DNA from: Eledone cirrhosa | Taxonomy: Eukaryota | Assembly (NCBI GenBank): GCA_964016885.1 | Contig: OZ024745.1 | Span: 80,724,001-80,788,000, forward strand | Length of the DNA: 64,000 nucleotides | Direction: 5' to 3' | In this document: piece by piece, positions 9,581-63,334 of the stretch | Layout: each line of letters opens with the position of its first letter | How positions within the stretch are numbered: the first letter of the stretch is position 1 | Translations under genes and position numbers: made by a program | The notes under the pieces: model-generated | What the model saw: only the letters and a program-made list of their open reading frames with translations | Told to the model about the DNA's origin: nothing | Database searches by the model: none

Positions 9581-9961
9581 TCTGGTTGGTGAAATAAATC
9601 ATGCGACCACTCATGCCGACCTTTGGCCTCATAGATAAACGATTTCCTTCGTTTTGTTTTGGGGGTTCACGTAGCCAAAGTTTTCTTGAGGCGACCTACT
9701 TACTGTCAACGACACAGAATTCTCATAAACAGTCTGCTTTCTGCTATCTAGCGGTCAGTTCGGTTCAGTTCACAATAGAGATCAGAACGATGTAGTTTAC
9801 CAACAGAATGTTTCAAAAGTGAAGAATGGTCTGACTTATTCTTCAGTTTTGAAACTGCAGTAAGTGAACTTAGTGAAGCCTCCTATCTTTAGGTTGCTTG
9901 ACTGAGAATATGTCCATAGGAAAATATGCTTCTGAATAAGATGTTCTATATGTATATGAAT

Positions 9962-10155
9962 ATAGGAAAAAGTATGACCCCGACGGCAGAGCTCAAGCCG
10001 TTTCGACGGCTATTTCTGTTCAGAAGTAGCCGTCGAAACGGCTTGAGCTCTGTCGTCGGGGTCATACTTTTTCCTATTACCCACTCTACTACCCTAAGTA
10101 TTGAGTACTTTGGTGCGTTATGGTCCATCTGGTTCCTTACCACAATTCCTTCGTT
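9962..10155 (+). repeat. Hairpin-headed ~190-bp repeat, copy 1
   Basis: 57-bp palindromic arms (9962-10018/10021-10077) plus a unique ~75-bp tail; homologous to 17860-18056 and 63161-63296. Confidence 0.9.
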
Positions 10156-10285
10156 GTATATGAATATATATATATAACGGGGGAAAGAGAGAGCGAGAGA
10201 GAGAGAGAGTAACTCATGCAAAGTTACCAACAGGTAGAGTACTAGTAAAGGCAACTAATACAATAAAACTTCACTCACATCTAGT

Positions 10286-14245: not shown

Positions 14246-14365
14246 TATATACGGTATGTTTATGAATAAACATTAGAAAGCCATAGCTATGAATTTTGGA
14301 AGCTGTTTTACACCATGTTGATGGTGTAGGGAAGAACAAAGGTGAGACACAAAATACAAAACCCA

Positions 14366-14408
14366 GTCACTGAGGAAGTCACAGAATGTGCGACAAAAGA
14401 GCTTTGAC
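14366..14408 (+). ncRNA. Degenerate minimal hammerhead (G12>A), paralogue of 17133..17175
   Basis: GTCA CTGAGGA A GTCACAGAATGTGCGAC AAAA GAGCTT TGAC, inside a diverged direct-repeat copy (about 14330-14560) of the pseudo-LTR at about 17090-17315. Confidence 0.55.
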
Positions 14409-14609
14409 AATATGTAAACAACCATCCAGTTATCGAACCAACCAACCAGCCAACCAGCCAACCAGCCAACCAGCCAACCGGGAATTTATAATAAATTGAA
14501 GTGAAAACCAATATGTGTGTATGTTTTTATTAGCAACATGACCCTCCCAAAGTATAACAATATCTGTTTCAACACACGTTTTCAGATAAGAAATCTTGCA
14601 AAACAAATT

Positions 14610-15026
<417 letters not shown>

Positions 15027-15189
15027 CAATGATATTAAATAAATGGAAACTATATTTATAAAACACACTTTGTATTTTATCTGTATTTTATCTGATGAAA
15101 GCGTACCAAAGTTTTTGGTACCCTTGAAATATATATAATAGAATAAATATGGTTTTATAAATATAGTTTCCATTTATTTAATATCATTG
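15027..15189. mobile_element. Mini-element: 38-bp inverted arms enclosing a hammerhead
   Basis: caatgatattaaataaatggaaactatatttataaaac (15027-15064) and its reverse complement (15152-15189). Confidence 0.75.
15085..15144 (+). ncRNA. Minimal type I hammerhead ribozyme
   Basis: ATTTTAT CTGATGA AAGCGTACC aaagttttt GGTACCCTT GAA ATATATAT A ATAGAAT: 7-bp stem I, intact core, palindromic stem III, AUA cleavage site. Confidence 0.8.
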
Positions 15190-15444
15190 AATATTATACT
15201 GAAGAAAACTTGTCGAGTGCTCTGAATCAGTTATAAACATTTATATTTGTTGAATAAACCAAAAAATTGAATATCCCTTCTGTTTATATACACACACACA
15301 CACACATATATATATATACATATACATATATATATATATAAATAGAATAGCTTTCACCGTATTTTTTACTAAAGAAATTTTAGCCTGATAATGGGGTTTA
15401 GAACCCTCAGATAAATAGAAAAAGATGAGTATTGTTGTACAACA

Positions 15445-15515
15445 CATGTGTTGGTGTAATGGTAGCACAGTGGTCTGGATAACCAAAGATGTGGGTTCGA
15501 CTCCCATGTACGTCA
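15445..15515 (+). tRNA. tRNA pseudogene or tRNA-derived head (anticodon-loop triplet GGA)
   Basis: CATGTGT TG GTGT AATGGTA GCAC A GTGGT CTGGATA ACCAA AGAT GTGGG TTCGACT CCCAT GTACGTC A folds as a 71-nt cloverleaf with a wobble-rich acceptor stem. Confidence 0.55.
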
Positions 15516-15632
15516 ATACTCATCGTTTTCCATGTATTGGTTATATATATATGAAAGACGTAAAATAAGAAAATTATAAAAATTAACTTACTTACTAAAA
15601 TTTCACTGCAACTAATTAGTTTCTGAAAGGGA

Positions 15633-16342: not shown

Positions 16343-17320
16343 TGTCTCATCTATGTACACTATATTCTTATCTTTACATTGTCCTTCAGTACATCTTATG
16401 CTATATACTATGTTTCTAGTTTTACAGTTAATATGGGGGCTTAGTTTACAGATTATGCATTTCTTATCTATACAGGGAGGTCTTTGAAAAGGGTATGTAT
16501 TACTAATAGTAATACATACCCCTATTAATAATACACACCCTTTTCAAAGACCTCCCTGTATAGATAAGAAATGCATAATCTGTAAACTAAGCCCCCATAT
16601 TAACTGTAAAACTAGAAACATAGTATATAGCATAAGATGTACTGAAGGACAATGTAAAGATAAGAATATAGTGTACATAGGTGAGACAGCTCGTAGTATA
16701 GGAGAACGGTTAAATGAACACTGGCGAGAGCTTCAAGATAAAAAAGAATCATCAGTACTCCACCATGCTAAAATAGAACATAAGGGCAAATTAAAGAACA
16801 TAGAAATAAAAACAAATCTACACACAGAAAAAACGCAATGTTTAGACAAATCACGGAGGCAATAAACATAAATGAACTCCAACCAAAATTAAATAGAAAA
16901 CATGAATGGAATAGCAACATCACAACTTACAATTAAGAACAAAATGAAAACACACACACACAGAACAAACAACCAACCAGTAACATGTAAATAAACAAAT
17001 AAATAAACAAATAAAAACACACATAGACACCCGGATGTAACACATGCGCAAACTAAGCACACAACACACACAAAAACAAGATGGCGCAGGACAGAACAAA
17101 GGAGAGGCACAAAACAAAGAAAAGAATCCCCAGTCACTGAAGAGGTCACAGAATGTGTGACGAAAGAACTTTGACAACATATGAACAACCGTCCGGTTGT
17201 GGAACCAACCAACCAACCGGAAATTTATAAATTTAATTTATAATAAATTGGAGTGAAAGCAACTGGTGCGTGTGTTTCTTATTGGCAACATGACCCTCCC
17301 AAAGTATAACAATATATATA
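16343..17320 (+). mobile_element. Penelope-like element 3' fragment (Neptune-like Cys-rich linker plus GIY-YIG) with 5' fold-back inversion
   Basis: PCIDKKCIICK..NCKTRNIVYSIRC..C..VYIGETARSIGERLNEH; the first ~167 bp are an inverted copy of the start of this fragment; pseudo-LTR with hammerhead downstream. Confidence 0.85.
17133..17175 (+). ncRNA. Minimal hammerhead in the Penelope pseudo-LTR
   Basis: GTCA CTGAAGA G GTCAC agaatgt GTGAC GAAA G AA CT T TGAC, about 230 nt downstream of the GIY-YIG remnant. Confidence 0.7.
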
Positions 17321-17703
17321 TAGTTATGTAATAAACAACATAAGATAATTATTTCATTTACCAGTGGTTTCTTGAAGGCAGATGTTGTGTCTGTCTTCAG
17401 TCGTCAGAATGAATAAATAACATAGTGTTTTTATTAATTATGGATTTGAAAACAAAATTTAGGAAATATGAAAGTGAGGCTGAAAAAAACGGGCGAAAAG
17501 GAAATAGCGAAAATAAATAAATAAATAAATATAAAAAATATATATATAAAAAAATAAATATCCAGAACATATCTGCGTCTAAATAGAAATACAGACAGGA
17601 ACATAAATACATACACATGATGACTGAAGACAGACACAACATCTGCCTTCAAGAAACCACTGATAAATGAAATAATTATCTTATGTTGTTTATTACATAA
17701 CTA
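17321..17703. mobile_element. Non-coding mini-element with 86-bp inverted arms that carry a hammerhead
   Basis: Arms 17321-17406 and 17618-17703 are near-perfect reverse complements. Confidence 0.75.
17353..17413 (-). ncRNA. Type I hammerhead ribozyme
   Basis: - strand reads TTCATT CTGACGA CTGAAGACAGA cacaaca TCTGCCTTCAA GAAAC CACTG GTA AATGAA: 6-bp stem I, intact core, GUA site. Confidence 0.82.
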
Positions 17704-17859: not shown

Positions 17860-17862
<3 letters not shown>

Positions 17863-18053
17863 GGAACCAGTAAGACCCCGACAGCTGAGCTCAAGCCGTT
17901 TCGACGGCTAATTCTGGACTCAGAATTAGCCGTCGAAACGGCTTGAGCTCAGCTGTCGGGGTCTTACTGGTTCCTATTACCCACTCTACTACCTCAAGTA
18001 TTGAGTACTTTGGTGCGTTATGGTCCACCTGGTTCCTTACCACATTTCCTTCG

Positions 18054-18056
<3 letters not shown>
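17860..18056 (+). repeat. Hairpin-headed ~190-bp repeat, copy 2
   Basis: Perfect 57-bp arms (17860-17916/17921-17977) with the same tail, flanked by (TA)n. Confidence 0.9.
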
Positions 18057-18096
<40 letters not shown>

Positions 18097-62956: not shown

Positions 62957-63106
62957 CTGTCTGTGTGTGTCTCTCTCTCTATATATATGTATATATATAT
63001 ATACAATATTAAATATATTGTAAATATACTCCAAATATTTGTCGAGTGCTTTTATATCAGTTATAAATATTTACTAGTTGTAACCCAACAATTTTAAATA
63101 TAACTT

Positions 63107-63144
<38 letters not shown>

Positions 63145-63160
63145 ACACATATATATTTGT

Positions 63161-63294
63161 CCAGAATTAGCCGTCGAAACGGCTTGAGCTCAGCCGTCGG
63201 GGTCTTACTGGTTCCTATTACCCACTCTACTACCCTAAGTATTGAGTACTTTGGTGCGTTATGGTCCACCTGGTTCCTTACCACATTTCCTTCG

Positions 63295-63296
<2 letters not shown>
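63161..63296 (+). repeat. Same repeat family, copy 3 (right arm and tail only)
   Basis: Starts at ccagaattagccgtcgaaac, i.e. at the hairpin loop; flanked by (TA)n. Confidence 0.9.

Positions 63297-63334
<38 letters not shown>

What the first reader, a model, noticed from the sequence alone, without database searches (positions are those of the whole stretch)
15027..15189. 163-bp cassette: a complete minimal hammerhead between 38-bp inverted arms
A textbook CTGATGA/GAAA hammerhead with a self-complementary ATATATAT stem III (able to dimerise) is enclosed by perfect 38-bp inverted repeats, directly at the end of a 410-bp (TA)n tract. It would be misannotated as a MITE. Perfect arms imply a recent insertion.
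Basis: partly seen in the sequence, partly recalled or inferred. Interest (0 to 1): 0.7.

Follow-up and report, generated by a model that had tools for sequence, protein, structure and literature searches.

The report
Inverted stub of a Penelope retrotransposon
This is not a free-standing ribozyme cassette but part of a 262-base back-to-back stub of a very common Penelope-type jumping gene; the pattern is already known, though such stubs likely record two copying enzymes starting at two fixed points on one RNA.

Summary
The 38-bp perfect arms, the hammerhead (HHR) motif and the (TA)n tract are real. The boundary is wrong. The insertion runs on to about 15288 and is a head-to-head pair of end fragments (pLTR) of a Hydra-type Penelope-like element (PLE) of 3.4-3.8 kb.

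The family is abundant: 4,033 exact hits for a 36-nt motif and 30,958 for the wider HHR motif. Copies have two fixed 3' ends, 52 and about 150 nt past the predicted cut. In 51 of 56 classifiable inverted pairs one arm has each end. The window copy is one such pair, joined at the element's own 11-nt inverted repeat. All 9 exact junction matches carry the tail on one side, so no free 163-bp unit was seen.

Perfect arms are common (13 of 33 pairs), so they are weak evidence of recency. An 11-nt duplication is predicted to misfold this copy's HHR. Cleavage was not tested.

The likely mechanism is twin priming on one uncut RNA. The scan has reported similar PLE stubs on other DNA. Verdict: a new family member showing a known footprint; low to modest interest.

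The parts
14614..15026 (.). (TA)n microsatellite, 413 bp; left flank and likely target of the insertion
   Evidence: TA runs at both outer ends in 41 of 51 pairs
15027..15064 (-). Inverted arm: reverse complement of element positions +15..+52 (counted from the predicted cut), ending at the short 3' end
15054..15064 (.). 11-nt junction overlap: the element's native inverted repeat, shared by both arms
   Evidence: overlap 11; helix 1
15054..15288 (+). Sense arm: 5'-truncated pLTR from about -73 to the long 3' end (about +150)
   Evidence: BLAST to L046 and L058 elements
15073..15094 (+). 11-nt tandem duplication private to this copy among those aligned; predicted to shift stem I out of register
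15084..15145 (+). Type I hammerhead motif: core 15092-98 and 15126-29, palindromic stem III 15129-36, predicted cut after 15137
15152..15189 (+). Internal stretch +15..+52; 15189 is the short 3' end (inferred reverse-transcription start site 1)
15190..15288 (+).

Best explanation
Window 15027-15288 is one insertion of two back-to-back end fragments of a Penelope-like retrotransposon with Hydra-clade motifs, sitting in a (TA)n repeat, and it likely arose by twin priming on a single uncut RNA. Shown: the parent element (HHR, tail, ORF, 3' UTR, HHR, tail, all in sense), two fixed 3' ends, one arm of each kind in inverted pairs, (TA)n flanks, and an 11-nt native overlap at this junction. Inferred: the endonuclease cuts both strands in (TA)n. 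One strand primes reverse transcription at about +150 and the other at +52. Both copies run toward the RNA 5' end, which is inferred to be an initiator-like TCACT at about -125. They stop early and are joined, here through the native inverted repeat that closes the hammerhead. The ribozyme is a passenger from the pLTR and likely has no role at this locus.
For: Parent: in 13 of 20 fetched loci the HHR and tail lie in sense directly before the ORF start (4 of them truncated inside the HHR part); L046, L051 and L058 have a second HHR 3.4-3.8 kb downstream. Related subfamilies have uninterrupted 743-aa frames (L240, L242). The model of L242 has pLDDT 86.5 and its top fold match is telomerase TERT, E 4.3e-9. 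Two 3' end clusters appear. Long plus short in 51 of 56 classifiable pairs, p 5e-11. In 32 of 51 pairs the short arm reaches further 5' than the long arm, and in 13 the arms share almost no sequence, so neither arm was copied from the other. Arms within a locus differ by 2.9% against 7.8% between loci, n=25. 5' ends: 13 of 100 fall in 4 nt at the TCACT adenine and 2 of 100 in the 49 nt upstream. 59 of 61 short ends run into TA. Literature: two internal start sites and both-strand extension in vitro (PMC11167929); inverted copy with one-sided tail (PMC8557442, PMC3846280).
Against: For the window copy alone fold-back cannot be excluded, because its short arm lies wholly inside its long arm (19 of 51 pairs are like this). 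20 of 76 pairs could not be classified and were left out. Microhomology is not the rule: 10 of 56 junctions overlap by 4 nt or more (null 3.5%), while 29 have a gap or filler. The own partner is the nearest arm in only 14 of 25 pairs, and gene conversion between arms could also make them alike. The RNA 5' end is inferred from DNA only. Pfam did not recognise the parent's RT or endonuclease. No intact ORF of the window's own subfamily was seen among 116 scored of 44,327 candidates. The survey samples come from contig C1 only.
Confidence: 0.85

Rival explanations
1. Same parent element, but this copy formed by fold-back: one cDNA from the long end folded at the native 11-nt inverted repeat, primed on itself, and was resolved at +52.
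For: The window's junction sits exactly at the native inverted repeat and its short arm lies inside its long arm. Self-priming was proposed for PLE palindromes in PMC3846280 (passage).
Against: It cannot explain 32 of 51 pairs in which the short arm reaches further 5', nor the 13 with non-overlapping arms.
Confidence: 0.1
2. An independent non-autonomous mini-element (MITE-like or retrozyme-like) of 163 bp that moves as a unit.
For: The same junction recurs 9 times exactly, and the unit folds into a stable rod.
Against: 9 hits against more than 4,000 family hits. All 9 carry the tail on one side (5 as in the window, 4 on the inverted arm) and have differing subfamily variants. Junction positions vary widely. 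The window copy is single, not tandem as non-LTR retrozymes are (bioRxiv 10.64898/2026.07.22.740005).
Confidence: 0.03
3. The left arm arose after insertion, by repair or template switching at the hairpin beside the long (TA)n tract.
For: It lies next to a 413-bp hairpin-prone tract.
Against: The arm ends at +52, the family's fixed short end, which a random repair event would not be expected to hit.
Confidence: 0.02

Closest known systems
Hydra clade of C-terminal-endonuclease Penelope-like elements, e.g. Hydra-1_Obim (Craig et al. 2021, PMC8557442)
   Same: DKT motif, CxCX5C linker, CxxC and CxH motifs, (TA)n targets, HHR in the pLTR. By eye the parent's RT motifs line up with Hydra-1_Obim in the supplement.
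   Different: A different family: the HHR sequence differs and a 13-nt motif of ours had 0 hits in the supplement. RWR in place of RWK; unit 3.4-3.8 kb against usually under 3 kb; tail about 99 nt against 30-40 nt.
Inverted pLTR with one-sided tail (Adineta Pen2a, PMC3846280; Fig. 2 legend of PMC8557442)
   Same: Head-to-head 5'-truncated copy, tail on one arm only, an Inr-like TCACT in the pLTR.
   Different: Here it is shrunk to 262 bp with one arm only 38 bp long, so it mimics a MITE; the one-long-one-short rule is counted (51 of 56).
Poseidon PAc of Anolis (Frangieh et al. 2024, PMC11167929)
   Same: Two internal start sites bounding the tail, AT-rich targets, uncut RNA as the main template.
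   Different: Another clade; there the HHR overlaps the ORF start, here the ATG lies about 200 nt past the cut.
Non-LTR retrozymes (PMC7761336; bioRxiv 10.64898/2026.07.22.740005)
   Same: Short, non-coding, type I HHR, related to PLE pLTRs.
   Different: Those are tandem 150-300-nt repeats that yield circular RNA; this is a single inverted stub with one HHR.

Membership tests
EN+ Penelope-like element insertion | Sequence is the pLTR of an element encoding a telomerase-like RT | tested here: met
   top fold match TERT
EN+ Penelope-like element insertion | C-terminal GIY-YIG endonuclease | tested here: inconclusive
   VVY..YVG-type motifs by eye; Pfam GIY-YIG hit in 2 of 35 aligned homologues but not the parent; fold search rows were RT or polymerase matches
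EN+ Penelope-like element insertion | Optional tail with two fixed 3' ends, present on one arm of an inverted pair | tested here: met
   51 of 56 classifiable pairs
Hydra clade | DKT motif, CxCX5C linker, CxxC and CxH motifs, no CCHH | tested here: met
   read by eye in L239, L240, L242, L235 against the text
Hydra clade | RWK motif | tested here: inconclusive
   RWR variant at that place
Hydra clade | (TA)n insertion and HHR | tested here: met
Hydra clade | Generally under 3 kb (a tendency in the paper, not a strict criterion) | tested here: not met
   HHR-to-HHR 3.4-3.8 kb, owing to a long 3' UTR
Hydra clade | Groups with Hydra in an RT tree | not tested
   reference proteins seen only in a supplement; compared by eye
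Type I hammerhead ribozyme | Core nucleotides and stems I-III | tested here: met
   96.7% of cells paired, 3 stem II pairs with changes on both sides, 9 hand-picked sequences
Type I hammerhead ribozyme | Self-cleavage as monomer or dimer | not testable with these tools
   folding predicts stem I out of register in this copy
MITE | Inverted repeats are the termini and copies share both ends | tested here: not met
   right arm is internal; ends vary
Non-LTR retrozyme | Tandem HHR-bearing units | tested here: not met
   one HHR of this family in the window; no such array

The most novel reading that the evidence does not exclude
The thousands of inverted stubs of this family are a genomic record of the Penelope mechanism: both strands of one (TA)n cut prime on one uncut RNA, one always at +52 and the other at about +150, and the copies run off at a TCACT start site about 125 nt before the ribozyme cut. 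That would explain the one-sided tail and the head-to-head inversion together, and would rule out self-priming as the general cause.
Probability: 0.55. Interest if true: 0.5.

Novelty: new member of a known kind. Interest (0 to 1): 0.25.

Why it matters
The locus itself is ordinary retrotransposon debris, one of thousands. Two things are useful. First, such stubs look like MITEs or free ribozyme cassettes and would be misannotated; about 31,000 motif hits in this genome belong to this HHR type. Second, how PLEs make inverted copies with a one-sided tail is still open (PMC8557442). The arm statistics give a quantitative prediction (twin priming at two fixed sites on one RNA) that can be tested with an uninterrupted related ORF such as L242.

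Tried and rejected
Rfam scan of the window: no hammerhead at gathering score. Pfam on parent ORF pieces: nothing. PDB sequence searches: nothing. The single-sequence fold failed, pLDDT 32. No RNA holder listed. The four contig runs laid (one study) could not span the locus, so insertion polymorphism was not testable. I first suspected the ORF was antisense to the HHR (L008); one search showed this was an inversion. I first guessed Naiad; rejected because the endonuclease-like region is C-terminal. Pile-up of 5' ends at the ribozyme cut: none exactly at it among 100 aligned pieces, but TA-rich sequence blurs this. Genome-wide counts were 63 at +1, 32 at -1 and 43 at +2, of which 23 look like internal deletions. 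17 of 20 inspected +1 rows were real breaks, and 2 of the first 50 of 140 nearby junctions were perfect +1 palindromes. So at most about a 2-3-fold excess; inconclusive. One search's pair table was polluted by TA-repeat hits and was redone. In one search, four 5' ends were alignment artefacts and were dropped. A bacterial promoter scan was irrelevant and gave nothing above chance. Lunse et al. 2017 was not held.

Full report
Observation. The arms 15027-15064 and 15152-15189 pair perfectly over exactly 38 bp. Between them lies a type I hammerhead: stem I 15084-91 with 15138-45, core CTGATGA 15092-98, long stem II, GAAA 15126-29, palindromic ATATATAT 15129-36, predicted cut after A15137. The (TA)n tract is 14614-15026. 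Rfam gives no hammerhead hit. Pair 10.1-11.1 is A-U, whereas PMC4209133 notes G-C as highly conserved, and the short palindromic helix III matches what that paper calls the canonical, dimer-dependent form (passages).

The boundary is wrong. A search of the window's genome (G000, 3.0 Gb) gave 966 candidates, 40 scored. Exact patterns give 4,033 and 5,379 hits; a wider HHR pattern gives 30,958 against 3 for the control. The window sequence continues as element to about 15288. Copies end at one of two places, 52 nt or about 150 nt after the predicted cut, and 59 of 61 short ends run into TA.

The parent. In 13 of 20 loci fetched around the ORF start, HHR (4 truncated) and tail lie in sense directly before the ORF; L046, L051 and L058 repeat the HHR 3.4-3.8 kb downstream, followed by the tail in L046 and L058. 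Related subfamilies have uninterrupted 743-aa frames. With a 35-sequence alignment the L242 protein folds at pLDDT 86.5 and its best match is TERT. Pfam misses the parent; 2 of 35 members hit RVT_1 and 2 hit GIY-YIG. The motifs DKT, CxCX5C, CxxC and CxH, with no CCHH seen, fit the Hydra clade; RWK reads RWR and the element is longer than typical. Hydra-1_Obim in the supplement has matching RT motifs by eye but is another family. No tree was built. The best protein relative with a source name is from a cephalopod, 40% identical.

How the stub is built. Of 146 loci on contig C1 (known duplicates removed), 73 hold a head-to-head pair, 76 pairs in all. 56 could be classified: 51 long plus short, 4 short-short, 1 long-long, p 5e-11. 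The window copy has a 38-nt short-end arm inverted on the left and a long-end arm on the right. They overlap by 11 nt at the element's native inverted repeat that closes the hammerhead, so only about 27 bases are new. The exact junction recurs 9 times; all 9 have the tail on one side and differ in subfamily letters, which points to independent events, not a mobile cassette. Overlaps of 4 nt or more occur in 10 of 56 junctions (null 3.5%), but 29 have gaps or filler, so microhomology is not required.

Mechanism (inferred). In 32 of 51 pairs the short arm reaches over 10 nt further 5' than the long arm, and in 13 the long arm starts at or after +45, so neither arm was copied from the other. Arms within a locus are closer than between loci, 2.9% against 7.8%, n=25. 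This fits two primers from one cut using one RNA, in line with the two internal start sites and both-strand extension shown in vitro for an anole PLE. Among 100 pieces chosen by a motif 3' of the cut, 13 begin within 4 nt at the A of a TCACT-like motif near -125, 2 in the 49 nt upstream, and 30 run on further upstream. The motif persists in diverged subfamilies, and an Inr-like TCACT was noted in an Adineta pLTR. I read it as the RNA start; no RNA data were available. For the window copy itself fold-back remains possible.

The ribozyme. Across 9 hand-picked subfamily sequences the core is invariant apart from the variable N7, 96.7% of cells pair and 3 stem II pairs change on both sides; the sequences are related, so this is supportive only. 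A common stem III variant keeps self-pairing through G-U. Among genomic copies, 54 of 82 pass a strict core-and-register pattern, as expected for decaying copies. The window copy has an 11-nt duplication; predicted in-register stem I probability is 0.0 against 0.03-0.58 in five other copies. Most templates were uncut: 82 of 100 pieces extend well past the cut. Any excess of ends at the cut is at most about 2-3-fold and unresolved.

Age. Identical arms occur in 13 of 33 pairs, and the window copy differs from the majority of 28 tail-bearing copies at 7 of 186 sites, against a median of 5.3%. It is not shown to be recent.

Literature seen. PMC11167929 parts 1-2 of 4; PMC8557442 passages, section 11 and supplement searches; passages of PMC3846280, PMC4209133 and PMC7761336; bioRxiv 10.64898/2026.07.22.740005 part 1 of 5 (supplements not seen); Lunse 2017 title only. 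Searches listed no paper whose title or abstract start describes this family or twin priming in PLEs; apart from the papers named above I saw listings only, and the library lacks most subscription journals. Scan notes on other genomes reach the same twin-priming reading; my counts came before I read them, and they are not independent support.

Verdict. A real feature with a wrong boundary: a known PLE footprint from an apparently unrecorded Hydra-type family. Interest 0.25.

Noticed in passing
window 16343-17315 and 14320-14563: A second, unrelated PLE stub: GIY-YIG frame at 16488-16862 (Pfam E 3.8e-5), a 346-bp inverted arm and an HHR-like motif at 17137-17165; a 74% identical pLTR-like copy at 14320-14563.
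   Followed up: partly
window 15350-15600: High-copy tRNA-related repeat, likely a SINE, just right of the stub (Rfam tRNA 15445-15515, 42.6 bits; high depth).
   Followed up: no
window 62990-63118: Tail fragment of a diverged subfamily of the same Hydra-type family between TA repeats (73% identity).
   Followed up: partly
L092 about 1632-1646: Telomere-type CCCTAA repeats as filler at the junction of an inverted pair.
   Followed up: no
window 17321-17406 and 17618-17703: Inverted pair, 97.7% identical, each with a CTGAAGA..GAAA match; probably another small retroelement.
   Followed up: no
window 17860-18083, 9947-10176, 63162-63324: A repeat family beside (TA)n with an internal inversion at 17860-17977; it also flanks several fetched loci.
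   Followed up: no
L239, L242, about 125 nt before the cut: The TCACTATCC motif is kept in diverged subfamilies although the neighbouring sequence has changed.
   Followed up: partly
L240 1482-3710; L242 1472-3700: Uninterrupted 743-aa frames of related subfamilies with the upstream HHR.
   Followed up: partly
L147-L149; L136 and L143: Near-identical junctions; the flanks shown for L147-L149 are also alike, so likely local duplications; counted once.
   Followed up: partly
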